Of a stretch of DNA of 64,000 nucleotides, positions 18,255 through 64,000 are shown in pieces. Under the pieces are notes generated by a model. It saw only the letters and a program-made list of their open reading frames with translations, did no database searches and was not told the origin of the DNA. The position numbers and the translations under genes are program-made. Position 1 is the first letter of the stretch. Each line of letters opens with the position of its first letter. Origin of the DNA: Chiloscyllium plagiosum (lineage: Eukaryota); NCBI RefSeq assembly GCF_004010195.1, contig NC_057719.1:23006618-23070617 (forward strand). Reading direction: 5' to 3'.

Positions 18255-18345
18255 TAAAATTGCTGGGAAAGCCCAACAGGTCTGGCAGCATCCATGGAGA
18301 GAAAACAGAGCTAACATTATGGATCCAGTGACTCTTCAGAATTCA
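18255..18345 (-). mobile_element. Penelope-like terminal fragment (family C)
   Basis: aaattgctgggaaagcccaacaggtctggcagcatcc ... ctaacatt ... tcttcagaa is homologous to 43365-43460. Confidence 0.7.
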
Positions 18346-21880: not shown

Positions 21881-21978
21881 ATACCACACCTCTGGCAGGT
21901 GGTTATTTTTGACCTACATGCACACGATTGGCAGAAAGGTCTTTTTCTGTGCTGTGGACATCCTATGACTCTGATACT

Positions 21979-22168
21979 GGATTAGTGGTGCTGGAAGAGC
22001 ACAGCAGTTCAGGCAGCATCCGAGGAGCAGTAAAATCGACATTTTGGGCAAAAGCCCTTCATCATACTGTATTTTACTGCTCCTCGGATGCTGCCTGAAC
22101 TGCGGTGCTCTTCCAGCACCACTAATCCAGAATCTGGTTTCCAGCATCTGCTGTCATTATTTTTACCT
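21979..22168. mobile_element. Penelope-like terminal fold-back insertion (family A, copy 2)
   Basis: ~60 bp inverted arms. 15-bp TSD tatgactctgatact at 21964-21978 and 22169-22183. Confidence 0.88.
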
Positions 22169-22904
22169 TATGACTCTGATACTCAAGTGCTGGTGACTAT
22201 AATATTTATATAAGTTAGGAGCCATAACAACAGTCTGTTGAATCTTTCAATACCATGTTACCGATATCTAGTTCTTATATTGTGGAAATTAACGTAAACA
22301 TTGCTGCATCAGGTATAAATGCCCTGCTAAAGGTAAATCACACATCACAGTTTTTAATGTCCATTCCCAGTATTATGTTCTTGTTTTATATAAAGGAGGT
22401 GAAATTTCTTTTGTTACTACCTCTTAGAAACACTACATAAGACATCGGAATGAATTTTCAGTGTTCCTTCTTTACAGTCACTATCTGGGAAGACTTAAAC
22501 TTGCTGTGATTATGTAAGGCCTTGGTGAGACCAGATCTGGGGTGTATTCCTGTGTTGGCAGAACTGATGTATGAAGAGAGAATAGATCAGTTGGAATTTT
22601 ATTCACTGGAGTTTAGAAGAGTGAGGGAAATCTCAGAGAAGCCCATAAAATTCTAACAGAACTAGACAGGGTAAAGACAGGAAGGATGTTCATGATGACT
22701 TGTGGGGTGCAGAACCGGACTGTCACAGTTTAAAGATATGGAGTAGGAATGAGATGAGGGGAAATTTCTTCACTCAGAAGTTGTTAACCCTGTGGAACTC
22801 ATTGCCACACAAAGTGGTTGAAGCCAAGACATTAAATGTTTTCAAGAAGATGATAGATATAGTTCTGAAGGTTAAGAGAATCAAAGTCTACAGGTAGAAA
22901 TGAT

Positions 22905-27959: not shown

Positions 27960-28735
27960 TTCTTTTTTGTTCATGCCTGGATGTAGACATAACTGGCTGG
28001 GCCAGCATTTATCAAGGTAAGCTTCTTTCTTGAACAACTGCCATCTATGTGGTTTACACAGACCATACAATAGCATTAGGGAAGGAACTGCGGGATTTTG
28101 ACCCAATGATAGTGAAAGGAATATGCATTTATTTCAAGTCGGGATGGTGAATGGCTGATCAGGCAAACTTGAGATGGCTGCCCTTGTCCTTTTAGATGGA
28201 AGTGGTTGCACTCTTAGAAGGTGCGGTCTTGACAACTTTGGTGGATTTATGCAATGGATCTTGTGAATAGTACACACTGATGCTACTGAGTGCTGGTGGC
28301 GGAGGGAGTGGATGCCTGTGGATGTAGTGGACTGCTTTGTCCTGGATGGTCAAGATTAGAGTGGTGCTGGAAAAGCACAGCAGGTCAGGCAGCACACGAG
28401 GAGCAGGAAAATCGACATTTCAGGCAAAAGCTCTTCATCAGGAATGGCATTTGCCTGAAATGTCGATTTTCCTGCTCCTCGGATACTGCCTGACCTGCTG
28501 TGCTTTTCCAGCACCACTCTAATCTTGACTCTGATCTCCAGCATCTGCAGTCCTCACTTTCACCTTATCCTGGATGGTGACAAGCTTTTTTAATGTTGTT
28601 GGATTTGCACTCATCCAGGCAACTGGTCACACTCTTGACTTGTGCCTTGCAGATGATGGAGAGGCTCTGGGGAATCAGGAGGGGAATTGATTGTTGTAGC
28701 ATTCCTAGTCTCTAACCTGCTCTTGTAGCTACTAT
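27960..28735 (-). mobile_element. L2/CR1-like LINE 3' fragment, interrupted by a hairpin insertion
   Basis: Reverse complement of the 12340-13085 family (cttgacttgtgccttgcagatg). Confidence 0.78.
28351..28567. mobile_element. Penelope-like terminal fold-back insertion (family A, copy 3)
   Basis: ~80 bp inverted arms. 11-bp TSD tcctggatggt at 28340-28350 and 28568-28578. Minus-strand CTGATGA-A-GAGC-TTTT-GCCT-GAAA-TGTC at 28441-28414. Confidence 0.88.
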
Positions 28736-29410: not shown

Positions 29411-29683
29411 CTTGTTTGTAATCCGGAACTGTTCTCCACTCAAGTTCATTAGATTTCATCACATTTGGTGGTGCATAATTCATACTTCAGCATTGACTCT
29501 TTCAGAGCTAACACCTACCATGGGATAGGAGGAGGTTGGGGAATGTTCTTGTTCAGAAACTAAATTACTCATCTTGATATTTTTATTTCATCTTTAACAA
29601 ATTTGAATAGAAATGCTAATTATTTCAGTTTTCTCAACAAAATGAGTCTTATAACCTCATGTATAGACAGTGAGCCAGTTGTG

Positions 29684-29874
29684 GATTAGTGGTGCTGGAA
29701 GAGCACAGCAGTTCAGGCAGCATCCAAGGAGCTTCGAAATCGACGTTTCAGGCAAAAGCCCTTCCCGAAACGTCGATTTCGAAGCTCCTTGGATGCTGCC
29801 TGAACTGCTGTGCTCTTCCAGCACCACTAATCCAGAATCTGGTTTCCAGCATCTGCAGTCATTGTTTTTACCTT
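29684..29874. mobile_element. Penelope-like terminal fold-back insertion (family A, copy 4)
   Basis: ~68 bp inverted arms. TSD agtgagccagttgtg (29669-29683) / agtaagccagttgtg (29875-29889). Confidence 0.88.
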
Positions 29875-30937
29875 AGTAAGCCAGTTGTGACTAGTATTCA
29901 TTTACCACCCACCCCCCATAGTGGCCATGTAGCTACTTCCTTAGTTAGGCACTGGATCAGGAATCTATTTGTTTAATTGACTAAAACCCTCTGGCTTCTT
30001 TGTATTTCTAATGATTTAATTAAACTTTGAGATGCCTGATTTTTCTGTGCAACAGAAAGATATGTAAGTGTACGTGATGCTCTTATCAGTTTAATGCTCA
30101 TCAACTGACTGTGGACACAATGCTGATTAAAGTGCCCATCAGGTAGTGTATTGAAAGACTGAATCATTGCTGATAGGGTAGGAATCAGTCTCATGTGGAT
30201 TCTGAGCTTAGGCTAACACTGAGGCAGATGAACTCTCTGCCCAGAAGCTTTTTTCAAATGTGGGGCCTGGATAAAACTTATTGTAATTCAGAAAAGTTGC
30301 ATATAATGGCTTTAGTTTAATTTCAGTGAAATACATTTTGATATGATGGGTTTTATTATTCCTGCAGTATTGCAAAAAAAAACTGTGGGCAATTCACTTC
30401 ATAAAGTGTATAACATATTTTATGTTATAATGTGTATATGGTGGAGGGAAGGGTCTTCAGTATTGTTTGGAGGACATGGGGTTTCTCGGTTTTCCTAATG
30501 CCCAGAGTCTCAAGAAATCTCAATTATTCAGAAAGAAATATTGAGATAAAACTGGGGAGGGAAAAATGTTAGCCAGGATACCAGGTGAATTCTGTCACTC
30601 AGCTGATATTATAACATAGGGCAATTTTGCATCTGCTTGAAAATTTAGTGGCAAGTCTGGTTGGTTTAAACATTCATTCAAACAATTTGTATTTCCAACA
30701 ATGATCCCTCAGTTCTGAACTGGAGTGTCAATTTAGCTGATGCTCTCAAAAGTGGAAGCTGAATTCATGTGGATATGTTTCTGGAGGTGGCAAGGATCTC
30801 AATGCTGGATGGGAAGCTGGTGACAGTCTTGTACTGCTTCTATTCTGGGATACCCCACTCTATTATGGGTCAGTCCGGCTGTTGAGAGGTCACCAATGCT
30901 GGAACTACATGCATCTCATTACCTAAAACCTCCCCCA

Positions 30938-32890
30938 TAATAACATAAGGTAAAGGAACAGAATTAGGCATTAGCCCATCAAGTCTGCTCTGCCATTCAA
31001 TCATGGTCGATATCATTCTCAAACCCATTCTCCTGCCTTCTCCTCATAATCCTTGATCCTCTTATCCATCAGGAACCAGTCTATATCTGTCTTAAATACA
31101 GTCAATGATCCAGCTCCCACAGCCTTCTGCAGCAATGAATTCCATAGATTCATTATCCTCAAGCTGAAGAAACTTTTCCTTATCTCCCTTCTAAAAGATT
31201 GTCCCTTCACTCTGACACTGTGACCTTGGGTCCTATTCTCTCTACTAGTGCAAACATCCTCTGTATTTCCTCTCTTTCCAGGCCTCTCCGTATTCTGTGA
31301 ATCTCTCTCATTATTTCAAACTCCATCGAGTAGATCCCGGAGTCCTTAATCGCTGCTCATATGATAAGTTCTTCATTCCCAAAGAGTCATTCTTTGAGTC
31401 TCCTCCAAGGCCAGCACATCCTTCCTTAGATATGGAACCCGAAACTGCTCACAATGTTCCAAATGCTGTCTGACAATACAGCCTCAGCAGTACATTTCTG
31501 CCCTTGTATTGTAGACCTCTTGAAATGCATATGAACATTGCATTTGGCTTCTTAAGCACAAACTGAATGTCCATGTTAACTTTAAGAGAATCCTAAACTA
31601 GCCTTTCCCCATTTAGAAAATACTTTACATCTCTATTCCTCCTACCAAAATACATAACCTCACACTTTCCCACATTGCGTTTTATCTGTCATTTCTTTGC
31701 TCACTCTCCTAGCCTGTCGAAGTCATTCTGCAGCCTCCCCACCTCCTCAACACAACCTGTCCCTCCACCTATCTTTGTGTCATCTACAAATGTAGCAACA
31801 TTGCCCTCAGCTCCTTCATCCACATCATTAATGTATAATGTGAATAGTTCTGGTCCCAACAGCAACACCTGTAGAATTCCATTAGTGACCAGTAGCCAAC
31901 CTGAAAAAGATTCTTTTATCATCACTCTTAGGGGATTGGCTGACTGGCAGAAGACTATCAATGCCAATACCTTGCCCAAGTTCATTGGCTCTTATCTTAT
32001 TTATAGCTTCCTGTGTGGTAGCTTCTGAATGCCTTCTGGAAATCCCAATAGATCATGTCAACTTGCTTGTTACCTCCTCAAAGAATTCCCTTGTCAAAGT
32101 TGTGCTGACTCAATCCAATTTTACCAAGCCTTCCCTTGTCAAAGTTGTGCTGACTCGATCCAATTTTACCAAGTACTTTGCACTGTCATCCTTAACAATG
32201 GACTCTAATACCTTAGATTAGATTAGATTACATTACATTACATTACAGTGTGGAAACAGGCCCTTCGGCCCAACAAGTCCACACCGACCTGCCGAAGCGA
32301 AACCCACCCATACCCCTACATTTACCCCTTACCTAACACTACGGGCAATTTAGTATAGCCAATTCACCTGGCCCTGCACATCTTTGGACTGTGGGAGGAA
32401 ACCGGAGCACCCGGAGGAAACCCACGCAGACACGGGGAGAACGTGCAAACTCCACACAGTCAGTCAGTCTCCTGAGGCGGGAATTGAACCCGGGTCTCTG
32501 GCGCTGTGAGGCAGCAGTGCTAACCACTGTGCCACCGTGCTGCCCTTACTAACAACTGACATCAGGCTAACTGACCTATAGTTTCTCATGGTCTGTCTCC
32601 CTCCCTTCTTAAATAGGGGTGTTTCATTAGCCATTTTCCAGTCCTCTGGGATCCTTCCTGACTCCAGTGGTTCCTAAAAGATCACACCATTAATGCCACC
32701 ACAATCTCCTCAATTATCACTTCAGAACTCTGGGGTGTAGTCCATCTGGTGCGGCTGATTTATCCACCTTCTAACCTTCCAGAATTCCCAGCACCTTCTC
32801 CTTAGTGATGGCCATGGCACTCACCTCTGCCCCCTGAATCCCTTGAAGTTCTAGTATGCTGCTGGTTCTACCACCATGAAGACTGATTGA
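30938..32890 (-). mobile_element. CR1-like LINE ~2 kb 3' fragment including RT core
   Basis: ORF 31701-31985 gives GILQVLLLGPELFTLYINDVDEG...TFVDDTKIGG (GVPQGSxLGP and FADD motifs). ORF 31019-31210 is the C-terminus. Confidence 0.92.
32214..32545 (-). mobile_element. HE1-type SINE, full length and young, inserted in CR1
   Basis: Near-identical reverse complement of 20103-20423 with an (AATGT)n(AATCT)n tail. Confidence 0.95.
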
Positions 32891-35800
32891 TTATTTTTCT
32901 CTGATTTCAGAGAAAGGCTTGTTGCTGCCCTCCAAACTGCCTGATCCAAGAAGGAAACAATCAGGCTTGCTTTAAAAATAGTTTGGGTTTCTCACTCCCT
33001 TCTCAATAAGCCAGTGAAACATTAATCAAAAACAGAGGAGTCTTTCCATTGTTTCCCATCATGTAAAGTTCAGAATTATGGGGACACTTGTTAAAAATAA
33101 AGCAGGATTTTTGACACACTTTGGTCATAGTATCAGTGTCTGAAAAAGAGAGGTCCATAATATTTCCTGTCTTTCGCCAACTTTTAAAAATAGTACAACA
33201 AATGAGGACCATGAAACATTGAGTTTAGTACATATCTGTCACAACCGTGGCAATAATCAGCTGTAAAATTCTGTCAACTTCCATGTAAGCCCAAGCAGTT
33301 GTAGGAAATGTGATAAATTTGCACAACAACAATTCCTGAAAACAGGTTGCATGTGGAAATTGTCCCTCAAGCATTAAGAGTTCACAGTCCAATTTTTGAC
33401 TTCATTTTTTTGCCATGTGTAATCAAATTGATTATGTCTCTCTTGGTGGAACTTATTAGATCGTTTCTGAAAATCATCGAACAAAATACCATCAACACAC
33501 CCTCAATGAATTTCACAACATTGGATTTATTTCCGAAATATTATCAAGGATATGAACAGTTTTAACAAAGCCGATCAATTTATTTCTGTTTTATGTCTTT
33601 ACCATTTGTTGCTGTGTTTATCTCCTTCTCGAGTTCCCATATTTCCATGCAAAACTTTAGCAAAATTCTTCGAATGTTTCTCTCCTCTCATGGAACATTT
33701 ACTTCTGAGATTTTTGGATGATTTTATAGAGGTATTTAAAATGCACTCCAGTTCAGACTAAAATATTATTTGCATTAATTGAGCAGAGGGATATGGCATA
33801 ACAATGTGACTTTTCTCTCAATATTTTATTCATCTTCTGATTTCTTCCTCTTGTTCATGACAAATCAGACAATTCAAATATAGGGGCTACAATAACCTTC
33901 ATGTCATAATCTGAGTGGAGTCACATTACTGCTGCAAGTTATTGTAGGACATGTTATTGTATATGTGCCTCAGCCAGAGTTACTCTGACATGGATGGATG
34001 AGAAAGCACTGGAGAGGGCACCATTGACAAGAACAATGAGGGCATTGGACAAGGATCTGCCTGACTCATCCATGCCTTTCCAAGTAGCTGTGCCACAAGA
34101 GACTTGAAGTCAGCAGAGAAAGAATCACTGCATTTTGCCAGCTGACATGGAAATGCAGCCAACTATGAAAGGCTGCTTTAACATTGAGAATAAGACTGAC
34201 AAACATGTTGAACTTTTGCACTTCTGAATCCTTCCATCTTTTGGGGATATAGCAAATGTGACTTAGTACACGGGCCATTGCATCTTCTGGGAGATCACAA
34301 ATACAGGCTGCTAACATTGCGTTACCCTTCTTCAATTCTCTAACAATCAAATAACATGTTATGGTCACTGTGGTATTATAAGTAAAATGGATTCATCCAT
34401 CTGAGCTCCAGTGTGCTATGGACCACAGTTCCTCAACAAACAAAAATCCATCAACATTAATTGAAAACCACCACAAGTTAATACACATCGGTGCATAATT
34501 TTCAAGACCCATCATCATCTAAAGAATCTTGAGTTAGAAATTCAGTTGCCACACTTTATGGTCACAGAGTTTGTAATATGTTATTTCCCTCCATACTTTC
34601 AGATTGAGTTGAGGTATGCAGGTCTAGTGCACATTTTAAACTCTAATGTGTTCTTGGATGTTCATATGACCACACAGTTAGTGGAATTTGGTGTGTTCGG
34701 TGAAGGAAATGCTGGTGAATCAAGCCTTCCCAAAGCAAAGATAATTGAAGAACCAAATTCAGGAAGCATGTGAAAAGTTGTGTGAATCTCAGTCCCTGAT
34801 ATTCTGATCATCTTTCACCTTAGAAATGTTTTCCAATCCATCTTTCAGGGAAATAGCAAAACAATCATCGGTAGGTGTTAGCTTTTCTTTTAAACCAGCT
34901 TGTCACTCCTCATTTCTGGTAAAAAGAGAGGTTTTTTTAAAAATTATTGATGTATGGTGAGCATTACTGGCAATTTATTGCCCTGCAACATGTGGGGCAA
35001 AGGATTCCCCATAATGCTGTTATGTGGGGCATTAAAGATTTTGACTCAGCGATGCTGACTAAATGGAGATATACAGCATTTCCAAATCAAGGTAGCACAT
35101 GACTTGTGGGGGAGCTTAGAGATACTGAAGTAGGAACCAAATATTGCACAAGTTCTAACATGACAAGGGCCTTGTTCATGGCTTGTCAGGGATCTCCAAA
35201 CATCACTTCACATAACTGGAAACTGTTGAGATCTGCATCAATAAATTGCCTTATCACTGTAATGCACATACTCATGCCTCCAGCAGCATAAAAGATATTC
35301 AAATTAATATTCACTTTATCAATGCTACTGTCTTTGCTGTTAATGAATACTCCTGTTTTCTTTGCATTACAATAGATATAGCGGTTTTGGAACAATGGAT
35401 ATCAAGTGACAGGGTGAATTTCACAGATCCTTGCTTTGATGATTGGGAAGGCATTTATTAATTTAGCTCATTGGCACCAATTACATCCAATCACTTCAGG
35501 AATAAACCAAGTAATCTTTTCCTTTATTAGATAACCAAAATAAAAATGCCTAAAATAAAAGGCTGAAAATAACATGTTGACCTTGCATACTGCGATCTTG
35601 GAAGCCTTCTGTTGTGCCACATCTCTTCCCCATCTTCAAAAATATCCTTAAAATAAATCATCTTACCATTTAAGAAATACTTTGGCAGTTCCTGCTTTCC
35701 GAAATTAGCTCTAAATGTGCCAAAATTCTTTTTTTTTTGTTATTCCACAGATCATCCAATGAATAATTTACAGATGCACACATTCAGAAAACACGCATGC

Positions 35801-37149
35801 TGTTTTCTGGCTGTTGAAATTTACCAGAATTCTGTTTCTAAAATTAATTCAGAAGCATGTGGCTACAAATGAATAGTTATGCCCTTGTGTGCATTTTAAT
35901 AAACCTTACAGCCTTCACAAATTACCATACATTAGTAAATTAAATGAACAGTTTCTGTGGCTGCTGTTTAAGTGACACAAATTATCCGACGACCGCACTA
36001 TATTGTCACAGAGCTTCAATCTGAGAACATGAGTGCTACCACAGGATGTCAGGCTTCAAGACAGAAACATAACCCCCAGGGAAGGATGTTCAAGCTGGTG
36101 CTTTTTCTAAAGCAAATGTACCAATAAAGGCGATGTTGAAACTCTACATTGGACTAACTTATTTTGCAGCCAGTGTTGCTAAAAGTCACAATGACATTGA
36201 CTCCTAAAGGAAGAAAAGTTACCACTGCATTTTTGTGCCTTAGGTACTTTCCAGAGCCCTATGGGGACTTATCAAACATCCGTCAAACCATTGATGTTCT
36301 CCTGTGCATCCTGGACAACTGCTTTTCTTTTCAAATTACTGTCAGGATAGGCCAGCAGCATCATCATGTCAAAGATGATTTATTTTTAATGTCATTTGTT
36401 TTCCAAGGTGTTTCATATGGAGTAAGGTGGCTGACCATTTTTATCTGTGTATGGTGCAGTATACTTAACAACAATTCAAACAATTGTTCACTTGAATAAT
36501 TAAATGCATTGCAATTTAGAGTTCGGCAATATATGTTGAAACATTTACCTTTGAAGGCTGTTGAATATGCATGGTTCAGTTTGTTTGCTGAGAATAGATT
36601 CCTCAACATTTTAGAATTGTGTTTCGGCATCTTTAATTTAAGTTAATTCATGTTGAAATGTATCAAAAGGTTTCCAGAAGTAACAGTGCACAATAATACT
36701 TTGAAATAAAAACATTGAGCTACAATGATATGACAGTACTATCATCCTCCAACATATCTGAAAAAAACAGAACCTTTTGGTTTTTCCATTAAAGAACAAG
36801 AATAAAGAGACAATGCATGTCAATCACTCATTTATAATATTGAATGCTAATTTTAGAAATCTGATCAAAATTCTAATTATGTTGGTCTAATGTTATGAGT
36901 AAAGTAAATTATCTGCCACTAAACCTGTATTCATGGTTTTTTTCCCTCCAGATTTTGTTCTGCGAGTTACAATGCTAAATACTAACAGTTTGTGTTTGGG
37001 GCAATTTGAGTCTTAACAAGCGAAGGTTCTCATCTTAAACAAGTTATGGCTTACTGCATTGTAGCAATCGAATATAAGTTAGATTAAGAACACAGATGTT
37101 AGTGCTGGGACCATGAGGTAATCTGTTATGTAAGAACGTGGGCACATAG

Positions 37150-37305
37150 TGAAATAACTGCACAGAGGCTCGTAGCCCCCATCACCAGGTTAACCTTTAT
37201 TTACACTTGGGGTGTCCTCAACACTGATCCAGGTCCCTCAGAGCCAGCTCTCAGAGTGAACAGGATGTCTGATGCTCCCATTTATAACTGTCAACCAGGG
37301 CTGAT
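37150..37305 (-). mobile_element. LTR-like 3' end
   Basis: tgaaataactgcacagaggc is the reverse complement of the end at 42465-42484 (gcctctatgcagttatttca), with an AATAAA on the same strand. Confidence 0.6.
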
Positions 37306-38556
37306 CATCTATCTGAACCTCATATTCACGCACATATCCTTTGATGTCATTAGTAACTAGAAAAATATCAATCTCAATTGTGAATTTAATTAATGATGAA
37401 GTTTCCACTTCTCTCTGGGTATGCAATTCCAAAGATTCATTACTCTGAGTGAAGGCGTTTCTCCTCAAGTCAGTCATAAATCGCTCGCTTTTTATTCTGA
37501 GATTGTTTCCTCTGGTTCCAGACTCACAGCCAGGGAAACCATCCTTTCTCTACCATCCTGTCTATCCTTTTGTAAATTTTTAGGAGATAAGGCCTTCACT
37601 CATCAAGATCCTCTGATCTTCTACTTTTGCCACATGAATTTATGTGATACTGCCAGATTGGGTGGACCGTAATGCAATCTCCAGCATTAACCTTTTCAGA
37701 ACCGTTACTTCATATAACATCTCCACCAAGCTTCCTCTTTATTTGCCCCATAGTTAACATTTATATCAGCCAGTTACATTCACCAGTATCCCATCCTCAC
37801 TAAATGTCAGATTCAAGATTTCAGACTGTCTGGAAGTTTCACATTTCTTTCAGAAAGTGTTTCTATTCAAACTTAGAGATGTAGCTCTTTGGCTCATGGA
37901 CTGTCAACTTTGATTCCGTTCTTGCATGATCTATAAAGTTTCTCTAAAACAGAGGACCCTTTCTATTATTAATGCCCTTTGCAGGGGAAGTAGTTGCTGT
38001 TAAGAAAGATAGTCAGTCCATTACCTTAAAGAAAAGTGGTCAGTCCATTATCTTATCTGGAGGACAATTAACCTACTGACTTTCTTTTACAGAGGAACTG
38101 CTGAATGCGGTAGTCACTCAAAAACAAATTGAGGCATCTCGAATTTTTTAAATTACCTCAATGAAAGGCAGCTACTGCTTTTCTTTAACTTCAGATTTCT
38201 GGTATCTGAAAGATTTTGGTTTTATTTGAAAGATGCCTCAGTTCCAGCTTTGGCAGCTACAGATATGACCAGGCATGCACATTTGTCAGAACAACAATCA
38301 GCAGATTATGAAGCTGTTTTTAAAAAAAAAGCCATACTCAATGCTTATCAATCAAAATTTAGAACTACGAGAAAGAAACCAATCAGCTGTTTGTCGGAGT
38401 TGAGGAGGAAGTTCTTCTCTCAGAGAATAGTGAATCTTTGGAATTCTGTACCCAGAGAAGGTTGGAAACTTTATAATTAAGTTCAAGATTGAAGCCATGA
38501 TTACAGCCTATTGTCAAGAATGTCATAATGATTGGTGATAAAAGAACTCCCTTTGA

Positions 38557-39510
38557 TCATAAAACCCTAAGCTATAAGAGCAGGATTAAGCCATTGGACC
38601 CATCGGGTTTATCATGCCATTTGATTACAGCTGATACGTTTCTCAACCCCACTCTGTTGCCTTCTCACTATAACCTTTGATCCCCTTACTAAGCAAGAAC
38701 CTGTTTATCTCTTTCTTAAATGCACTCAATGAATTTACCTCCACAACCGTCTGTAGCAATGAGTTGCACAGATTTGCCACCCTCTGGCTGAAGAAATTCC
38801 TCCTCACCTCAGTGTTAAAGAGTCATCACTTCATTATGAAATAGTGCTCTTCAGGTCCTAGTCTCTCCTACTAGTGGAAACATCTTTTTCACATTCACTA
38901 TATCCAGGCTTCTCAGTATTCTATAACCTTCAATGAAATCCCCCTCCTCTTTCTAAACTCCATTGAGTACAGACCCAGAGTCCTCAACTGCTCCTCACAT
39001 GACAAGCCCGTCATCCCTGGGATCTTTCTTGCAAATTTTCCCTGGACCACATCTAAGGCCAGCACATTCTTTCTTTGATTCTGATGCAAAACTGCTTGCA
39101 ATACTCCAAATGCAATCTGATCAGAGCCTTATACAGCCTCAGCAGTACATCTCTGCTCTTTTTTTCTAGCCCTCTTGAAATGAATGCTAATATTGCATTT
39201 GCCTCTCCCAACTGCCCACTGAACCTGCATGTGAACCTTAAAAGAATGTTGAACTGGGACTCTTAAGTCTGTTGCACTTTAGATTTCCAAAGCCTTTGGA
39301 AAAAGTCTATTCTTCCTCTCAAAGTACATAGCCACACACGTTCTCACATTTATTCCATCTGCCACTTCTTTGCCCACTCTCCTGGCATGCTCATATCCTT
39401 CTGCAGCCTTTCTGCTTCCTCAACATTATCTGTCCAACTACCTACCTTTGTGTCACCTGTAAGCCTAGCAGCAATGTCCTCAGCTCCTTCTTGCAGATCA
39501 TTAATGTCTA
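38557..39510 (-). mobile_element. CR1-like LINE 3' fragment
   Basis: ORF 38913-39101 (LDVVQGKFARKIPGMTGLSCEEQLRTLGLYSME); same family as 30938-32890. Confidence 0.88.
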
Positions 39511-39901
39511 ACTTTGCTCCCACCAAACGAGTCCTAATGAGAAGAGGGTCTTGTATTAAACAAGATATAATGTATTGTTGATAGCAAGCGGATACACATT
39601 ATATTTTTAAGATAGACAATACAGAGACCCTATGGATATAGGTCTTCACTTTATAAGGTTCGAAAGTGTTCTGCCCTAATCCGTACGATATGACTGATTG
39701 GGTTGAGCTTAATGCAGATTCCAATATCAACCCTTTCAGAACCATTGCATTATACACCAGAAACAGAAATTGCTGGAGAAACTTAGCAGGTCCAGAAGCA
39801 TCTGTGGGAAGTTAACATTTCAATGCTGACTCTTCATCAGAACTGTTGGTAATTCTCCTGCAAGGCAGCTTTGCTATGTTAAAGGCTCTATGAAATAGCA
39901 A

Positions 39902-39927
39902 GTTGTTGTTGTTGTTGTTGTTGTTGT
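39902..39927 (+). repeat. (GTT)n microsatellite
   Basis: Eight perfect GTT units plus a partial one. Confidence 0.95.
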
Positions 39928-40957
39928 AGCTTTTAACCACTTATAAAGCAGCAATGTGGGAAATGCACAATACAGTCTCTTAAACATTTACCAGAAATGC
40001 ACAATAAGGCATTGTAATGTACACAAAATCACCAAAGCTGAAATAAACAGCATTACACTGTTTAAGGGAGGACATCAGATCCCATTCAATATGCTCTATT
40101 TATGCCATAAGACATCCAGGTGAAGCTAAACACTGGGAAATTCTACAAGCAATTTAAGAAACTGGAATGTCCATCAACTCCCTGGGCAGATTGTTTTTAC
40201 TGCATACTAGTAAATCCCAAAGCAAAAGATTATTGAGAAGAGCTGTAGTAAATCCAACGAGATTTCTTATCAACGCAGACGAATATTAAAGCATATGAAG
40301 GGAAAACATTAAAAAGGAGTCAAGTCAATCAGATATCTTTATTGAAAGCTTTCTCACAGTGATTTTCTTTAATGGTTAGATGACCTGTTGTAAAGATTGG
40401 ATTTATGTACATTTTCCTCATTATAATAACTAATTTTAGGTTTTTTTAAAACAAAGTGAACTGAATAAAGCAAACTTTTTTTGTTTTGTGGGATGAAGCA
40501 CGTTACATTTTCGACAGGGAAGAAAGGTGTAATTTGTGAATCTTGAGAGTTTGATAAAACCTCCTCCAGTTACAGACTGAAGGATAGCAATGCTCTGATA
40601 ATGTGAAGGATAAAGTATGGTTTACCAATATTAAATAAGCATAGTTATGGAAAAGACAATGGGATGTCAAATATAAATCCTCAGCAACTTCTTCCAAAAA
40701 GTTACATGCTAAGAGATTGAAAACCTTGACCTGGAGGGGTGGGCAGTACATATATTTCCACTTTAAAGTTGGTCTTGCATAGTGCAATCAAGATAGAGGG
40801 AAGGACAGATTATCTGAGTAAAATGGGGAAATTATCACACTATCTTATTTCTTCTACCTGAAAATTCGGTATTTTAATGATTTATTTAATTAATTGAATG
40901 TCTCCAATAAATTGAAAACAATATTCATCGTCTGTAGGGCATCTTCATGAAAGATTT

Positions 40958-41695
40958 GATTGGATTTGGTTTGATTTATTGTCACATTTATTCTGTTACT
41001 AAATACAGTGAGAAGTGTTGTATACTGTCACTGCTATCCAGCACCATCTTAAAACACAGAAAAATAAATGAAACACAGAATGAAAAGGCAGAAGAATAAA
41101 GAAAGAAAGGAAATGTGTTCAACAGTTCTTCTTTGTTAAATGCTGTACCATTGGCCAAGGACATGGTGGCCAGGCACAAGTCCCCTTTGCCATACAACTG
41201 CCACTGGAACGAAAGTGACCAAGCTTTGGTGCCATTCCACTCCCACCCGTGGCCTCACCACTATGAGCCCTCATTGGAACTTGCCAATGCAGGCGCCACT
41301 CATGCCATCGAGTACCAAGCCAGACAAAACTTGACACTGCCACCACCATGAGGCCCACCTCGCCGATGCAGCCGCTGCTGATGCTGCAGGGTCTCGTACT
41401 GGTCACAAATGGCCATGAGTTGGCACTAGGACTGCTTCGTTGATACAGGTGCCACCAGGATCCCAAACTCTCTCCAGCATCATCACCACAGCTTCACGTT
41501 GGGCCCACTCACCTCCGTCGATGCCGTCACCCCAACTGCACTCTTTAACGAGAGGCAAGTAAAATAAAAGAGAAAAAAACAAATGTAAAGAGAGAAAAAC
41601 AGAGAAGAAAATGAGAAAAGAGAGGACAAAAGTGACAAGAAATAAAAAGAAAAGCAGACGGAGAGTCATGCCCTGGGCTTCACTGCCATCTTACT
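40958..41695 (-). mobile_element. Non-autonomous LINE-tailed element
   Basis: Minus strand: AAGATGGCAGTG head (~41692), T/C-rich tract, GC-rich body, then tcactgtatt...gtgacaataaatcaaa tail like the Rex1/Babar-like LINE tail. Confidence 0.6.
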
Positions 41696-41699
41696 AGGA

Positions 41700-42484
41700 A
41701 TGAAAGTGTATTGATTGGAACCAGGGTGACATCGTTGCCTATAAGGTTCTTGATTGGGGTTGTTAACCTGGGCCAATCAGGACAGCCCTGGCTGACCAAT
41801 CTAACCACAAGATTAGGTCAGAGGACCTCCTCATGGATCTCCTCCTGGGCCTGGACAAACTGGCCACAAACAGTTCCAGACAGCAGGCCCTGAAGGAGGT
41901 TGTTATGGCCGATTGCCTGCCCCTCTTCCATGGCTACATTCGTGGCCAGGTGTCCCTGGAAAAGGACCATGTGGTTTCAAACAACACCCTCGAGCTATTC
42001 AGGGAAAGGTGGGCACCACAGGGAGTGGAGTGGTTTATTCCTCCCTCAACTATATTTTGATTTAATCCCTGCCCTCCCCTTCACTTTTTTTGATCATGCA
42101 ACATTGCCTTTTGATGTGAAGGGCACTGCTTGTCACTGGCCATTCGGGTGCTTCCTGGTGGTGGAATATAAATAAAGATTTACACACTTGTTGTTTTTCA
42201 CTGTATACAACACCTGCACACACACACGACATGGGTATTGGGGAACAATAAACACGACCACAGTTAGGCAGTAGTGCGGCGGTAAAGTTTAAAAGAAAAA
42301 TACTTATAACCAGGAGATTTAGAATCTCCTCAGTTTAGGGAACTAAAAAAATCTAACCACAAGATGAGCATCTCCTCAGTTCAGGGGTCTGGTGCTAAGC
42401 TGGCTGGCCACAGCCAGTTTGCTGTGCACAAGTAAATAAAGGGTATCTTAGTGATGGCATACCGGCCTCTATGCAGTTATTTCA
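41700..42484 (+). mobile_element. Solo-LTR-like element disrupted by a Tx1-like insertion
   Basis: CCAAT boxes (gattgg, ccaatc), AATAAA at ~42435 and terminus ...gcagttatttCA shared with 37150-37305. Confidence 0.55.
41829..42300 (+). mobile_element. Tx1/L1-clade LINE 3' end
   Basis: ORF 41833-42060 (LLLGLDKLA..SR...DCLPLFHGYIRGQVSLE...FRERWAPQG) resembles the Tx1 ORF2 C-terminus, followed by AATAAA and an A-rich end. Confidence 0.7.
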
Positions 42485-43237
42485 GAAAGGAATGGAATTG
42501 AAGCAGGATGTGTTTTTCACAATTTTAATTTCTCTGTATGTCTAATACTATGGAGCTAAACCTTTGATAGATATTGCTAACCTTACCATTAGGTATTTAA
42601 AGCTAGAAGAAACTTACACCAAGGATTGAATTATGCCATTGTGTGACAAGTCTTAAAAGTGGACAAAGATTCATTCAAAAATAGTAGACCATTATCCCTT
42701 CTTAATTTTAATTTTAATACACTATCACAGGTTTGGTGTGAGATCATGGGAAATATTCCTTGTGGTCAGAACATTTCAACAAAATGCGTATTTGTCAGTG
42801 AATCTTCATATAAATTTTCAATTGATCAGAAAAGAAAACAGCAAGAAAAATGTAATCGTGTACCCTTCAAGAAAAATCACACAGGCAATTTTATATGTGC
42901 CATGTGTAAATATCCTTTTATTAATTTCTTACTTTTCTTTGGGTATTGATCTAGGCTACAGATGTTTTATTTAAAGCAAACACATTTAAATTCCATTGCA
43001 TTACATAAAATATATCCTAAAAACAATTTTGAACCATAAATATTTTAGATACTTTTCATCACTTGAAAATGTGGACTTAATTATGATCTAGAGGGCATCA
43101 AAAATATTAAGCAGACTTTGGAGACATTAGCTCTTCTGCCATCACAGGAGATTCTCAAGAAGAGGTTGAATTAATCTAGAGGCTTAAAGGCCTGTACAGT
43201 GCAGACGAAACACTTTGAAGACAATTTTGTTCAAATT

Positions 43238-43582
43238 AGAAACAAAAACAGAAATTGTTTTGGGAACTCAGCTGTTCTGGCAATGTCTTTGGAGAGAAAA
43301 CAAAATTAACGTTTCAAGTCCAGTGACCTTTATTCAGTGCTCATGGAGTCATGGACTCCTAGACAAAAGCAGAAATTGCTAGAAAAGCTCAGCAGGTCTG
43401 GCACCCTCTGTGGAGCGAAATCAGAGTTAACATTTTGGATCGAGTGATCTTTCCTCAGAACAGTTCTCGACCTGAAACGTTAACTCTGATTTCTCTCCAC
43501 AGATGCTGTCAGACCTTTGAAGCTTTCCCAGAAATTTATGTTTTTCTTTCTGATTTACAACATCCACAGTGGTTTATTTTAG
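43238..43582. mobile_element. Penelope-like terminal repeats (family C): a minus-strand copy plus a fold-back copy
   Basis: Arms 43365-43460 and 43468-43545 are inverted. Minus ctgaggaaagatcactcgatccaaaatgttaac and plus gacctGAAACGTTaac are hammerhead remnants. Confidence 0.75.
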
Positions 43583-50670: not shown

Positions 50671-53665
50671 ACCTTCCAATGACACTAGCTCATTGTTTGT
50701 ATTTACAAAGGGGCACAAACCAGTGACAACCTACAGCTGTCATAGCGTCATGTTAGGAATGAAGATCCAATATAGATTTTAAATTACAGGGAGAACAGAA
50801 ATACAATTGTTGTAGAAACTGCATTCTGAATATAACTGCAAAATGCAAGGTGCTAGTAGGTCTTTATTAGGCATTTGAAAGAAATCAGGGAAACTAGAAC
50901 CGGCCTGGCAGAAAATCTTTCTAAATACGAAGTGTGGCAAAGTGGACAGTAATTTACTATAATACTTGTAGTCAAGATAGGAGAAATGGATAAACTGGTT
51001 CATGATAGAACATGGGTTTTGTGACAATATAAAGCAGGAAGTATTAGATCATCTGTCCACTAAACATACAGACTGATATTTTGTACAATTTCCTGAAACT
51101 GCATTATGTTGGCTGAAGTACATGGTGAGTGGTCGGAGCATTATCACCTACTTTGATATTCCGTCATTGGCTAAATTTTACTCCCTCAAGTTTAATGTCA
51201 TTATTAGAATAATTTTTAGAATCAATAATAGATGTGATAATTCAGTTAATATTTAGAATCTAGAGTAAGCAACTTAGCTTTGATAGAGACATAATATTTG
51301 ATACGTTTGGTACATCTTTTTCTTCAAAGTTGAAATATTGGATTGATAAAGGGAATTCAGTACGCAAAAACAATGAACCTTCTTGAAGGTGTTCCATCAA
51401 TTTTCTCACACGAAGTTTGTTAGAAAAATGTAGATGAACGATATTAGAGAACATTAAGCGACTTTGTGAGAAAGTTGGTTAGTGTACAAATGAAAGTAGA
51501 TCATTTTAATTGTCAGATATCTGTAAAAGAAAAGCCATGGCCACAATTAGTCAAGTGTTTGCAGTTTTTATCTGTATAATAGGAACTAAATGACAATGAA
51601 AGTGAGCATAAGGCATCGAATCATCAGGACAAGGTCAAAGAAACTGTGGTAATGTTGGGAATCTTCCAGGGAGTTTTTTCCAGTATTTCAGAAAAGGCTG
51701 AGAAAAAACTCAACAGGGATTTATAAAATTATGAAGACTTATGATTAATGACATAAGAGAAGGCAATTTAATATTTACACGGTCATTCATGAAAGGTTAC
51801 CAATGAACATAAATGGAGTGAGAAGGCAGATTAGACATTTCTTTACACGGTGGGCTGCTGGAGAATGGACTACTTTGCCACAGGGAGTAATTGAATAGTT
51901 GTGACAAGTACATTTTAAGAAAAGAAATGGAGAAATATTTGAAGCAGAGCAAGAAGCACAGCAATGCAGAGAGAAGACAGTTGAATCGATCTAACACATG
52001 ATGAGATGTGTGGCCTCTTTCACGTTGTAATATTCCATGATTCTACTCAGCATAGATTAGTAAATGAACCAGGAACATTTCCGGTTCATTTGGCAATGCC
52101 TCATTTCCAAAGTTTCACTGGTTCACTGAACATTTAATGCAACATTATAATTTTGTTGTTAGCATGAATGTTTCTCCATAGATACTTTGGAACCATGTTA
52201 AAGGTGCCAAATAAATTAAAATTCTTGTTGAAAATCTTGGATAGAGTTGTTTATTCAATAAGGAGTTAGCATGATTGTCTCTGGATTCTTCCCTGTAAAT
52301 TCTCCGTGAACTTAAACAGATAAATAAATAAATGTTAATAGAAAAGAATACAATTCACAAATCAGAGAGAACAAAGGCTGTATGTCATAAACAGAGCCAT
52401 GTGCAGGCATTTGCTAGCATTTTAGCTTTGTTTTTTGCCAGAGGCATCATTGCATGAGAAGGCTGGCTGCAGTTGTATGACTGATGGTTAAGCAATATGT
52501 ATTTAAAAATTTAAACCTGTGCTTCTCGCTCTTCCAAAATAAAATGCCCTGTGGGTTAATAAAGTAGGCAGTGCCAAATATGAATTTAATAGGATTTCTG
52601 CACTGTTAGGATTCTACACCTCCATTCCATTGCAATTTCCATTAATGGAAATAAATGGATTTGTTTAGGGCTAAGTTGTGGATTGGAGGAAGGAGAGGTC
52701 AATGCTTATAAAAATAAAATATTTATAAAATAAGGAATGGACTTTACAGAATTACTAGTTAAACATAAGTGCAAAGTAGTTTACACTTTATATATATGTG
52801 TGTGTATGCAAGTAACATCATTCATAACTAATTCTTTTTAGTTAAAGAGGTGACTGGTAAGCATCTTTGATCATTTTCTTATAATAAGAAAAACTATTTA
52901 GCTAGTAATTTCTTCACATTCATATTAGAACATTATAAGCATACATGACAAGGCAAAATGATGTAGACTTTGAACCTAAGGCTGAATTTATCCTATTCAT
53001 ACTTTTAGAGCTTTTAAAATAACTTCATAAGTGGGGTAATTGAATTTGAATATCGATTATGTTTCAATGGATTGGAAATTTCAACATAATCAATCAGACA
53101 GGAAACATATAATACACACGTGAAAAATAAGGCCTAATGCATTAATTAAAATCTGGAAATTATTTAGGTATTGAAAGACTAATTTGTACATTAGAGATTG
53201 GGTGACTCAGCAATGGAAATACTATTGAACATTATGGGAGATGGTTCAGCTCCCCTTTTGTTGGAGTTAGGCATTGAATGAAGATGTCACTGGCTAGGAC
53301 AACACTAATTGCCAATCATTAATTGTCCTTGAGGAAGTGGTAAACTGCTTTCTTGAACTGTTGCAGGTATAGGTGAAGTGTAGGTGCACCTACAGGGCTG
53401 TTAGAGAGGTCATTTGAAGATCTGTTAGCAGAACCTATCTTTAATTCAGAGATCATAGGCAAAGAAGCCAAATTACGCAGGTTAGTCACGCAAAATGGAA
53501 TCATGATTTGAAAAAAATGCCTAAAGAGGTCAAGAAGAGAGTTTAGCCTCTCACTTGAAGGTAAACTCTGAGTTGTTTTTGGATGTACAATGAGGACAAG
53601 CATCTCAATTTTGTCTGCTCAATAATTTTGCCTCTGCATCCTAATGCTGATTAAAAGAAATGTGT

Positions 53666-54390
53666 CCAAGATGGTGGTGGAGTAGGGCTCATGAGCTGGT
53701 GTTCACTTACTCTGTCCATCTCCTTTCATTTTTCTCTCCTCTCTTTTCACGTTCTTATCTGTTTCTTTTTAACTTGGACAATATCGGCAATGTCCGAGGG
53801 GAAAGCAAACATGGAAACCCAGACTCAGCATGGACTCGATTCTAGGCCTCACTGTGGACTCAAACTCCTGGCTTCAGCATTGACTCAAACTCCTGGTCTC
53901 AGTGTGGAAGCAAACTCCCGGTCTCAGTGTGGACTCCATTCCCAACCTCAGTGTGGACTCGACTCTGAGCCTCAGTGTGAACTTGATTTCCGGCCTCAGT
54001 GTGGACTCAAACTCACGGCCTCAATGCAGCAGCAAACTCCCGGCCTCAATGTGGACTCAAATCTCAACCTCAGTGTGGAGTCAATTCCCATCCTCAGCTT
54101 GGACTCGATTCCCAGCCTCAGTGTGGACTCATCTCCCAGTATTCCCTGCCTCGAGGTGAAGCCCCACACAGTTTGAGATGGAAGGACTGTTAATCTGAAC
54201 TCTTATTTCCCTGTTTTTTCTATTTTATTGCTGGACTTTTAATTTTTTTATTTTTCTACATTTTTCTTTCAGAATTTGTACTTAAGTGTCTGTACCCAGA
54301 TACCTTGATAGGTAAGATTTCACTCTAAATGATGACTTGTAAACTTTTCACTGTACTCATGTGAGTATATGTGACAACAAAAACTAATTC
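53666..54390 (+). mobile_element. Non-autonomous LINE-tailed element with internal minisatellite
   Basis: CCAAGATGGTGG head, pyrimidine tract, tandem array, and tail aaacttttcactgtac...tgtgacaacaaa. Confidence 0.6.
53824..54139 (+). repeat. Minisatellite, 13 units of 24-25 bp (consensus CTCAGTGTGGACTCRAWYYCCCRGC)
   Basis: Units read directly from the sequence. Confidence 0.9.
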
Positions 54391-54556
54391 TTGTAGATCC
54401 CAATGTACTTATTTATGGTAGCCAATGCCTGTCATGTTCTTCTCTAGTTTACTTAAATGGATGAATAATATATAAAGATTGGTGAAACAACATATTTGGA
54501 TCAGTGGTGCTGGAAGAGCACAGCAATTCAGGCAGCATCCGAGGACAGGCAAAATC

Positions 54557-54584
54557 GACGTTTCGGGCAAAAGCCCTTCATCAG
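54557..54584 (-). ncRNA. Minimal type I hammerhead ribozyme motif
   Basis: Minus strand CTGATGA-A-GGGC-TTTT-GCCC-GAAA-CGTC. Confidence 0.7.
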
Positions 54585-54600
54585 GAATAAAGCTTTATTC

Positions 54601-54628
54601 CTGATGAAGGGCTTTTGCCCGAAACGTC
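54601..54628 (+). ncRNA. Minimal type I hammerhead ribozyme motif
   Basis: CTGATGA (54601-07), extra A, stem II GGGC-TTTT-GCCC, GAAA (54621-24), loopless palindromic helix III (ACGT), predicted cleavage after GTC at 54628. Confidence 0.7.
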
Positions 54629-54885
54629 GATTTTTGCCTGTCCTCGGATGCTGCCTGAATTGCTGTGGTCTTCCAGCACCACTGATCCAGAATCTGGTTT
54701 CCAGCATCTGCAGTCATTGTTTTTACCTCGTTGAAACAACATATTTGTCTATCTAAAGAACATAACTATATAAAGTCGTCAGTAGCAGCTAAGTAGCACA
54801 TCTGAGTTCTACCATTACTGCTCTTAGACAGGCTACCGGCAAAGGATGAGTATATCACATTGAGATGTTAATGAATAACAGTCTA

Positions 54886-55061
54886 CAGAGGAACTGAAGG
54901 ATTATTTGAAGGATACAGGTGGAGAGTATTTCACTCGGTTAATTGAATTCTGGATAATCGAATGCCGGATAACATAGTTTAGCCGAACGTCGGGACCTTG
55001 CGAGCTTGCCGGATAATCCGATATTTGGATAATCGAATGCCGGATAATTGAGGTTCCTCTG
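54886..55061. mobile_element. Tc1/mariner-pogo (Tigger-like) MITE
   Basis: TIRs CAGAGGAAC...GTTCCTCTG flanked by TA on both sides. A second copy lies at 62748-62920. Confidence 0.85.
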
Positions 55062-55196
55062 TAGTCGGTTCTGTTCTCATGCAGCCCCATGTTATAAGAA
55101 AATCACATAATAACACCATTTAAGCTCATGGGGCCAGAATCGCAATAATACCAATACATGATTTAAAAGCTTGCGCTTTAGAAACAGTTAGTCAAA

Positions 55197-62600: not shown

Positions 62601-62747
62601 AACCTGGTCATGTCCTTCCATGTTTATTACCCATCCCCACTCCCTGTCCAATCATCAGGTGGGATACTTTCAGCACAGCTAACCCTTTCTCACCTACTCT
62701 TAGTCTGATCATCACATTATATGGGTTGCTTCCAGCAAAGCCTACTA

Positions 62748-62920
62748 CAGAGGAACCTCAATTATCTGGCATTTGATTATCCGAATGTCGGATTGACCGG
62801 CAAGATCGCAAGGTCCGGATGCTTTGCTAAACTATGTTACCTGGCATTCGATTATCCGGAATTCAATTAACTGAAAAAAATACTCCCCACCCATGTCCTT
62901 TGGATAATCGAGGTTCCTCT
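62748..62920. mobile_element. Tigger-like MITE, inverted relative to 54886-55061
   Basis: TA-CAGAGGAACCTC...GAGGTTCCTCT; internal sequence is the reverse complement of the other copy. Confidence 0.82.
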
Positions 62921-63074
62921 CTTTTTTCTCTTCTGCTGCTCGAGTAGAGCCCTGCCACCAATCTTACTTTATTAGCTGATCCTAAAGGCTTGTCTTATTT
63001 AGCAGTGGTAAGTGTTGAACAACTATAGAGTTTCAAAAAAAAGAGATATTTGCTTTAATATAGTTAATTGTATG

Positions 63075-63261
63075 TGTTGAGAGTGTGTTGCTGGAAAAGC
63101 ACAGCAAGTCAGGCAGAATCTGAGGAGCTGGAAAATCGACGTTTCGGGCCGGAGCCCTTCAGGGTGATTTTCCTGCTCCTCGATTCTGCCTGACTTGCTG
63201 TGCTTTTCCAGCAATACACTCTCAACTATGATCTCCAGTATCTGCAGACCTCACTGTTTCC
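63075..63261. mobile_element. Penelope-like terminal fold-back insertion (family A, copy 6)
   Basis: ~60 bp inverted arms. TSD tagttaattgtatg (63061-63074) / tagttaattgcatg (63262-63275). Confidence 0.88.
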
Positions 63262-64000
63262 TAGTTAATTGCATGACAGCAGTAAGTGTAGACTTAATTA
63301 CAAAGACTATCAGAGATGACACTAAAGTAAGTACAAGAAGAATTGGAGGAAGGTTGCAGAATGAGAGAGATTGAAAAGGTCACAGGTGTCACAGTAAAAC
63401 GTGTTCTGGACATGCCATATGTGCATTCAATGAACAGCTAAACCCAAACCAATCTAGAGTAAAGCTGAGCTGGGAAAATTGGCCATGCCTCTTTTATTGT
63501 ACAAGTGTTTTTTTTCAACTTTAAAGCCTTTTCAAGCAGATCAACCCCAGACATTTTGGAACTTGTGTCTTTATGACCTCCTGAAAATAAAACCAGGACA
63601 GCATAACTTTGTTAAAGGAGTAGCTTCATCATGCAAAGGGAGTGGTAATGTTATGTTTCTGTCCTCATGGATGCTGCCCAGACCTGCTGAGCTTCTCCAA
63701 TACTTTGTTTGTATCAGAGATTACACATTCGTTCCATCCGAACATCAGGCCAGATTGCTTCTTTCATATCCAAAGAGTGTGAGGCATCATCAGATTGAGT
63801 GGAGCTTTATGCAGCTTCTGCATTAACTCTTTTGGAACTATTACATTATGCAGCAGAAGATGATTGTTCAGGGAGCAGACAAACATTCATGTGACTAGAA
63901 ATAGCCAAGATGGCATATTGTTTTCCTGCTACCAGGTGGACAAGGTGAAAAGTCATTGGTATGGTCCATATCAGTATGAGATGAGGTCTTGCAGTGAGAA

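What the first reader, a model, noticed from the sequence alone, without database searches (positions are those of the whole stretch)
54497..54731. Near-perfect ~190 bp palindrome carrying an intact minimal hammerhead ribozyme motif on each strand
Seen: a loopless palindrome (centre aataaag|ctttatt) whose arms each contain CTGATGA-A-GGGC-TTTT-GCCC-GAAA-CGTC (plus 54601-54628, minus 54584-54557), flanked by a 16-bp TSD. Established: CUGANGA...GAAA...NUH is the hammerhead core. Penelope-like retroelements carry minimal type I hammerheads whose loopless palindromic helix III forms as a dimer, and an extra nucleotide after A9 is tolerated in some natural hammerheads. Inference: this is a young PLE-derived insertion. 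A transcript in either direction makes the antisense copy first and the ribozyme second, giving a ~95-bp dsRNA hairpin that should lock the ribozyme off and could be an ADAR/Dicer substrate. Helix I is weak here (2 bp then a mismatch), so activity is not guaranteed.
Basis: partly seen in the sequence, partly recalled or inferred. Interest (0 to 1): 0.8.

Follow-up and report, generated by a model that had tools for sequence, protein, structure and literature searches.

The report
Head-to-head Penelope retroelement stub with hammerheads
The palindrome is real, but it is likely an ordinary stub left by a Penelope-type jumping gene, one of seven such back-to-back insertions in this 64-kb window, and its two self-cutting-RNA motifs are predicted to stay locked inside the hairpin.

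Summary
A 193-bp palindrome (54497-54689) has one mismatch, one extra T and no spacer. It carries an identical minimal hammerhead core on each strand, inside a 233-bp insert flanked by a perfect 16-bp duplication.

It is not unique. Six more head-to-head insertions of this kind lie in the window, each with a different centre. The element's sequence lays 31,000-43,000 contigs in each of three DNA runs. A second organism likely has the empty site, so this copy is young.

The parts are published for Penelope-like elements (PLEs): head-to-head inverted pLTR with palindromic junction, 30-40-bp tail, target duplication (PMC3846280, PMC8557442), and paired minimal hammerheads on opposite strands (PMC4209133). 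This copy stands out only because both arms stop at the same base and have not yet decayed.

The ribozyme is likely off here. Each strand has one core, so no cis dimer is possible, and the hairpin is favoured by about 56 kcal/mol. No RNA read reached the unique flank. No link to a reverse-transcriptase ORF could be shown. The scan has already reported this family many times in the same genome.

The parts
54483..54498 (+). Left copy of the 16-bp target-site duplication; its last 2 nt also extend the palindrome (2-nt microhomology)
   Evidence: D4
54499..54592 (-). Inverted arm: end piece of the element on the minus strand, lacking the tail
54557..54584 (-). Minimal type I hammerhead motif, minus strand (predicted cut between 54557 and 54556)
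   Evidence: exact match; cut site from established hammerhead numbering
54592..54593 (.). Head-to-head junction: both arms stop at the same base, 8 nt upstream of C3, with no filler
   Evidence: other family copies carry unrelated sequence upstream of 54593-54598 (loose ends)
54593..54731 (+). Main arm: 5'-truncated end piece (pLTR-like) of the element
54601..54628 (+). Minimal type I hammerhead motif: core 54601-54607, extra A 54608, stem II 54609-54612/54617-54620, loop 54613-54616, GAAA 54621-54624, palindromic C15.2-G16.2, U16.1 54627, C17 54628
   Evidence: features as listed in PMC4209133
54690..54731 (+). About 42-nt 'tail' present on the main arm only
   Evidence: tail described in PMC3846280 and PMC8557442
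54732..54747 (+). Right copy of the 16-bp target-site duplication
   Evidence: D4; a contig of organism B matches from exactly 54732 onward (record 24)

Best explanation
This 233-bp insert between two 16-bp target duplications is likely a recent, dead-end insertion of the hammerhead-bearing end of a very abundant Penelope-like retroelement, likely built when both nicked target strands primed reverse transcription, and its two hammerheads are predicted to be inactive at this site. Shown: two head-to-head arms, a 42-nt tail on one arm, the duplication, six sister insertions in the window, a very large family. Inferred steps: (1) the GIY-YIG endonuclease of an active element nicks both strands about 16 bp apart; (2) the bottom-strand end primes at the outer start site, about 100 nt past the hammerhead cut site, and makes the main arm; (3) the top-strand end primes about 40 nt further in and makes the inverted arm, which therefore lacks the tail; (4) both cDNAs copy uncleaved RNA of one source and stop in or just before the hammerhead; (5) their ends are joined, giving the palindrome. 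In this copy both stopped at the same base, so the centre is perfectly symmetric and both cores are whole. Confidence is about 0.9 for 'PLE stub, ribozyme off' and about 0.6 for the two-primer route.
For: Seven two-arm insertions in 64 kb, each with a different centre; the six separate short-spacer inverted repeats that one search lists are all of this kind. Main arms end 100-106 nt past the cut site in 6 of 6 and inverted arms 54-73 nt past it in 6 of 6, by local alignment that can run into the duplication. This fixed offset matches the PLE tail and the two RT start sites measured in vitro for an anole PLE that nicks and extends both strands (PMC11167929). The two arms of one insertion agree at 52-55 of 55-56 columns, arms of different insertions at 39-50, so both arms come from one source. 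11 of 12 arms begin between 36 nt before and 4 nt after the cut site. Family size: 38,644, 31,106 and 42,832 contigs laid in three DNA runs. Depth over the 11 nt left of the centre is 0.2-0.3% of depth on the core, so this centre is not the family form. Young: arms differ at 2 places, duplication 16 of 16, and a 355-nt contig of organism B matches the right flank from exactly 54732 with 9 other letters and 1 gap in 144 nt. Ribozyme off: one core per strand and ddG 56.4 kcal/mol against a hammerhead-like fold; stem II pair probability about 1e-14 in the palindrome against 0.99 in one arm alone.
Against: No RT or GIY-YIG coding sequence was found joined to this family: none among 147 window frames scanned with Pfam (143 from 36-64 kb; the LINE-like control frames also scored nothing, so the scan was insensitive), and no protein hit for the frame through the arm. 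PLE membership therefore rests on anatomy. No Rfam hammerhead model matches. PMC3846280 explains such palindromes by self-priming on an antisense template, not two primers. Arm-to-arm gene conversion could also make arms alike. The empty site in organism B is inferred: the first 134 letters of that contig were not shown. One arm (12405-12445) starts 74 nt past the cut site, outside the cluster. The window sample is small (12 arms).
Confidence: 0.88

Rival explanations
1. Same PLE stub, but the inverted arm arose by fold-back: a cDNA or an antisense template primed on itself and was copied backwards, as proposed for rotifer Penelopes.
For: PMC3846280 reads head-to-head palindromic junctions as self-priming. 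It explains directly why the arms of one insertion share private variants and why this centre is perfectly symmetric.
Against: Fold-back gives no reason for the inverted arm to end at nearly the same place in 6 of 6 window copies. The other centres are asymmetric, and one pair of arms (12405-12555) does not overlap at all. An anole PLE extends both strands from two start sites in vitro.
Confidence: 0.3
2. The palindrome is a self-propagating non-autonomous unit that moves as a whole, with a ribozyme on each strand.
For: Clean 16-bp duplication around the whole unit and intact cores on both strands. Some depth lies left of the centre in all three DNA runs.
Against: All seven window copies have different centres. 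Depth left of the centre is at most 0.2-0.3% of core depth and can come from core contigs laid on the mirror position. The hairpin would block the ribozyme.
Confidence: 0.04
3. The locus is transcribed and its 95-bp hairpin works as a double-stranded RNA source for ADAR editing or Dicer silencing of the family.
For: The hairpin is very stable. Family RNA is present on both strands in organism A (1,542 reads). A>G is in 99 of 625 reads at 54658 and 38 of 442 at 54689, against 0.13% in DNA depth. Rotifer Penelopes give small RNAs.
Against: No RNA depth on the unique flank 54746-54875 in about 2% of one single-cell poly-A run (a weak test). A non-editing change, A>C at 54624, shows the same excess (89 of 905 reads against 0.1%), and the A>G reads lean to opposite strands at the two sites, so variants of a few expressed copies explain the signal equally well.
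Confidence: 0.08
4. Assembly artefact: the palindrome was made by fold-back reads during sequencing.
For: Perfect loopless palindromes can arise in library preparation (general knowledge).
Against: The arms differ at two places, the insert has a 16-bp duplication, six sister insertions show the same geometry at different ages, and an independent run holds the right junction with 0 differences over 166 nt.
Confidence: 0.01

Closest known systems
Insertion units of endonuclease-positive Penelope-like elements with an adjacent inverted pLTR and tail (Arkhipova et al. 2013, PMC3846280; Craig et al. 2021, PMC8557442)
   Same: Head-to-head inverted copy at the 5' end, palindrome at the junction, inverted arm about 40 nt shorter (37 bp in rotifer Pen2a), tail on one end only, target duplication around the whole unit.
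   Different: Here both copies are cut down to about 95 and 140 bp with no ORF; the duplication is 16 bp against 8-10 bp in the rotifer examples; the palindrome is the whole element.
Minimal hammerheads (min-HHR) of metazoan PLEs (Cervera and de la Pena 2014, PMC4209133)
   Same: [quoted passage not shown] Dual min-HHRs on opposite strands 100-700 bp apart were reported in Schistosoma mansoni.
   Different: Stem II is 4 bp (7-8 bp in S. mansoni) and helix I only 2 bp (as in Drosophila virilis). The two cores start only 16 nt apart. Activity was not tested here.
Poseidon element of Anolis carolinensis, PAc (Frangieh et al. 2024, PMC11167929)
   Same: Hammerhead a short way upstream of two RT start sites whose spacing gives the tail; both target strands cut and extended; uncleaved RNA is the main template.
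   Different: PAc was studied as a full protein-coding element in vitro; the passages read do not model palindromic insertions. The clade of the present family was not determined.
Animal non-LTR retrozymes (PMC7229834; bioRxiv 10.64898/2026.07.22.740005)
   Same: Short, non-coding, type I hammerhead, related to PLE pLTRs. A few family contigs show head-to-tail joints of about 130 bp.
   Different: Retrozymes are head-to-tail tandem repeats with two cores on one strand; this insert is head-to-head with one core per strand.

Membership tests
Endonuclease-positive Penelope-like element insertion | Full-length members encode a PLE-type RT and a GIY-YIG endonuclease | tested here: inconclusive
Endonuclease-positive Penelope-like element insertion | Inverted 5'-truncated copy adjacent at the 5' end, head to head | tested here: met
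   seven window insertions
Endonuclease-positive Penelope-like element insertion | 30-40-bp tail on one end only | tested here: met
   42 nt here (54690-54731), slightly above the published range; similar offset in the sister copies
Endonuclease-positive Penelope-like element insertion | Target-site duplication around the unit | tested here: met
   16 of 16 here; exact seeds of 9-15 bp at five sister sites; none of 9 bp or more at the old 43365 copy
Endonuclease-positive Penelope-like element insertion | Dispersed multicopy family with 5' truncation | tested here: met
PLE minimal hammerhead (min-HHR) | Type I core boxes, extra base after A9, G10.1-C11.1, palindromic 15.2-16.2 | tested here: met
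   against the feature list
PLE minimal hammerhead (min-HHR) | Core and stem II conserved across copies, variation in N7 and loop II | tested here: met
   Among the rows shown, variants in DNA fall on N7 (17%), loop II (2-22%) and CpG sites (8-14%); 10 rows were hidden and only copies at least 85% alike were laid
PLE minimal hammerhead (min-HHR) | Compensatory changes in stem II | tested here: inconclusive
   None among the rows shown; the window copies are too few and decayed
PLE minimal hammerhead (min-HHR) | Self-cleavage as a dimer or with protein help | not testable with these tools
   No pile-up of read ends in one poly-A single-cell run (table 6), which is a poor test of RNA ends
Rfam hammerhead families | Match to a hammerhead covariance model | tested here: not met
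   No hammerhead family among 13 and 2 matches at E up to 10
Non-LTR retrozyme | Head-to-tail repeats with at least two cores on one strand | tested here: not met
   One core per strand in the insert
microRNA precursor | Match to a family at its gathering score | tested here: not met
   Best 49.8 bits against 72 (MIR6024); generic hairpin matches

The most novel reading that the evidence does not exclude
These mini-palindromes are a fossil record of two-strand priming: one PLE protein dimer primes both target strands from two fixed sites on a short RNA that starts about 8 nt before the hammerhead core, and this copy, where both cDNAs ran to the same base, marks that RNA start. That would replace the self-priming explanation of head-to-head PLE structures and be countable on tens of thousands of insertions in one genome.
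Probability: 0.45. Interest if true: 0.4.

Novelty: new member of a known kind. Interest (0 to 1): 0.15.

Why it matters
As a single locus it matters little: it is one young copy of a very common repeat, and its form is published. The family is useful as material. How PLEs make their tandem and inverted insertions is still called undefined in the literature (PMC8557442), and a genome this rich in short two-arm insertions allows the two-primer and fold-back models to be told apart by counting arm ends. It also warns that such palindromes give false microRNA-like hits and are missed by Rfam hammerhead models.

Tried and rejected
Rfam: no hammerhead match in two searches; only sub-threshold microRNA hairpin hits.

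Collections: the hammerhead pattern found 0 matches in metagenome and viral contigs. A second pattern gave 3 metagenome loci that share only 22 nt with the arm and are treated as chance.

Protein search with the 43-codon frame through the arm, among longer proteins: 3 candidates, none significant.

Host gene context: 143 of 360 stop-free frames outside repeats (those from 36 kb on) plus 4 others were scanned with Pfam, with no hit. Whether the site lies in an intron is unknown.

Run search: no RNA holder listed. Run X6 had no depth on the right flank and says nothing on presence.

Editing: considered and left open, because a non-editing change shows the same excess.

Rejected: retrozyme, microRNA precursor, self-propagating palindrome and assembly artefact, for the reasons given under rivals and membership.

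Paper searches for a twin-priming or template-switch model of PLE palindromes returned one unrelated review listing and nothing. The library lacks most subscription papers, so this does not show that the model is unpublished.

Full report
Observation. The arms are 54497-54592 and 54593-54689, with one mismatch and one extra T. The insert between the duplications is 54499-54731 (233 bp). The last 42 nt have no partner in the left arm. None of this is chance: 0.00 motif matches were expected in 100 shuffles, and the fold has z -24.2.

It is one of many. BLAST of the right arm against the window found two-arm insertions of the same family at about 12403-12560, 21964-22183, 28340-28580, 29673-29890 and 63061-63275. 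A more distant relative lies at 43365-43545. The six separate short-spacer inverted repeats listed by the self-comparison of the window are all of this kind (a seventh row overlaps the 43365 copy). Five sisters have exact flanking repeats of 9-15 bp. Each has a different centre. Only this copy keeps a perfect core on both arms: of 4 motif matches with up to 3 mismatches, 2 are here.

Family size and age. The stretch 54570-54875 laid 38,644 and 31,106 contigs in two DNA runs of organism A and 42,832 in organism B. These are contig counts, not copy numbers. The unique right flank had one contig in X1, which crosses the junction with 0 differences over 166 nt, and none in X6. In organism B a 355-nt contig matches from exactly 54732, the first base of the right duplication, with 9 other letters and 1 gap. 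That is what an empty site predicts, but its first 134 letters were not shown. Depth just left of the centre is 0.2-0.3% of depth on the core, and loose ends at 54593-54598 carry other sequence, so the symmetric centre is not the family form. The host is likely a cartilaginous fish; this rests on my recalled impression of the LINE-like repeats and on earlier scan notes, and was not tested.

The hammerhead. It has the features listed for PLE minimal hammerheads: extra base after A9, G10.1-C11.1 and palindromic 15.2-16.2 (PMC4209133). In the rows shown, DNA variants fall on N7 (17%), loop II (2-22%) and CpG sites (8-14%), which fits selection on the motif in the source elements. Ten rows were hidden, and no compensatory stem II change was seen. 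Rfam's hammerhead models do not match. At this locus the motif is predicted to be off. Each strand has one core, so the cis dimer is impossible, and forcing a hammerhead-like fold costs 56.4 kcal/mol on either strand. Published minimal hammerheads cleave weakly even as dimers, and the anole PLE hammerhead needs the element's protein.

How it was likely made. In the window, main arms end 100-106 nt past the predicted cut site (6 of 6) and inverted arms 54-73 nt past it (6 of 6), by local alignment that can run a few bases into the duplication. The anole PLE cuts and extends both target strands and starts reverse transcription at two sites whose spacing is the tail (PMC11167929). I infer that each target strand primed one arm. 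Arms of one insertion agree at 52-55 of 55-56 columns and arms of different insertions at 39-50, so both come from one source, though later gene conversion could contribute. Eleven of 12 arms begin between 36 nt before and 4 nt after the cut site. Arms that keep the core must have been copied from uncleaved RNA. Two arms begin at or within 4 nt of the cut site, too few to claim cleavage. The published alternative is self-priming on an antisense template (PMC3846280). It explains the shared variants but not the fixed outer end.

Expression. In about 2% of one single-cell poly-A run of organism A, 1,542 reads lay on the family, on both strands. None gave depth on 54746-54875 and no pile-up of ends was listed. 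A>G was seen in 99 of 625 reads at 54658 and 38 of 442 at 54689, against 0.13% in DNA. A>C at 54624 was as enriched (89 of 905 against 0.1%), so editing is not shown.

What is known. Head-to-head inverted pLTRs with palindromic junctions, an inverted arm 37 bp shorter, a 31-bp tail and duplications of 8-10 bp are described for rotifer Penelopes. The adjacent inverted 5'-truncated copy and the 30-40-bp tail are called typical of PLEs (PMC8557442). Pairs of minimal hammerheads on opposite strands 100-700 bp apart were reported in Schistosoma mansoni. The one defining feature I could not show is a link to an RT plus GIY-YIG frame.

What I read. PMC4209133 and PMC11167929: parts 1-2 of 4 (main text and start of methods). 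bioRxiv 10.64898/2026.07.22.740005: parts 1-3 of 5. PMC8557442, PMC3846280 and PMC6155905: 12 passages each. PMC7229834: 7 passages. Other papers: search listings only. No figures or supplements were seen; the supplementary alignments of PMC4209133 and the tables of the preprint, which sampled one cartilaginous fish, may already list this family. Searches returned no title on this family in a shark, which is weak evidence.

Earlier scan notes. Looked up after my reading was formed, they report the same family and palindromes on other pieces of this genome (147 of 266 notes fit 'hammerhead'). They are unchecked AI notes and are not counted as support. One of them says that most copies stop 8-12 nt upstream of the core; this copy stops 8 nt upstream on both arms, and I took the RNA-start wording of the novel case partly from it.

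Verdict. Real, young and neat, but an ordinary member of a known kind. Interest 0.15.

Noticed in passing
window 12403-12560, 21964-22183, 28340-28580, 29673-29890, 43365-43545, 63061-63275: Six more head-to-head insertions of hammerhead-bearing end pieces, from at least three subfamilies, each with its own centre; single-arm relatives also at about 18261-18301 and 63660-63700.
   Followed up: yes
window 54497-54498, 21977-21978, 29682-29683, 28349-28354: The target sequence at the outer end of the inverted arm continues the element's own sequence for 2, 2, 2 and 6 nt, which suggests short primer-template pairing at the inner start site; no such match at the 63061 copy.
   Followed up: partly
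joints at 54727-54730 back to 54596-54602 and at 54632-54635 back to 54593-54603: A few contigs show head-to-tail repeats of the roughly 130-bp unit, and others two hammerheads about 45 nt apart on one strand. These could form the active dimer and resemble retrozymes.
   Followed up: no
window 54636-54640 and the loose-end consensus before 54593 (agreement 0.49): Copies that extend upstream carry a 5-nt motif complementary to 54636-54640, which could be a distal part of helix I in the parent element; truncation removed it here.
   Followed up: no
window 54658 and 54689: A>G excess in family RNA reads (16% and 9% against 0.13% in DNA), matched by an A>C excess at 54624; editing not shown.
   Followed up: partly
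window 28349-28529: Both arms of this older copy carry the same two CpG-to-TpG changes in the hammerhead, which points to an already mutated template or to gene conversion between arms.
   Followed up: no
window 53821-54145: A 24-bp tandem repeat lying in a 173-codon stop-free frame (53655-54176, +), 340 bp upstream of the insert.
   Followed up: no
window 54877-55070 and 62736-62909: A roughly 190-bp element with 18-bp inverted ends and a second copy in the window, MITE-like.
   Followed up: no
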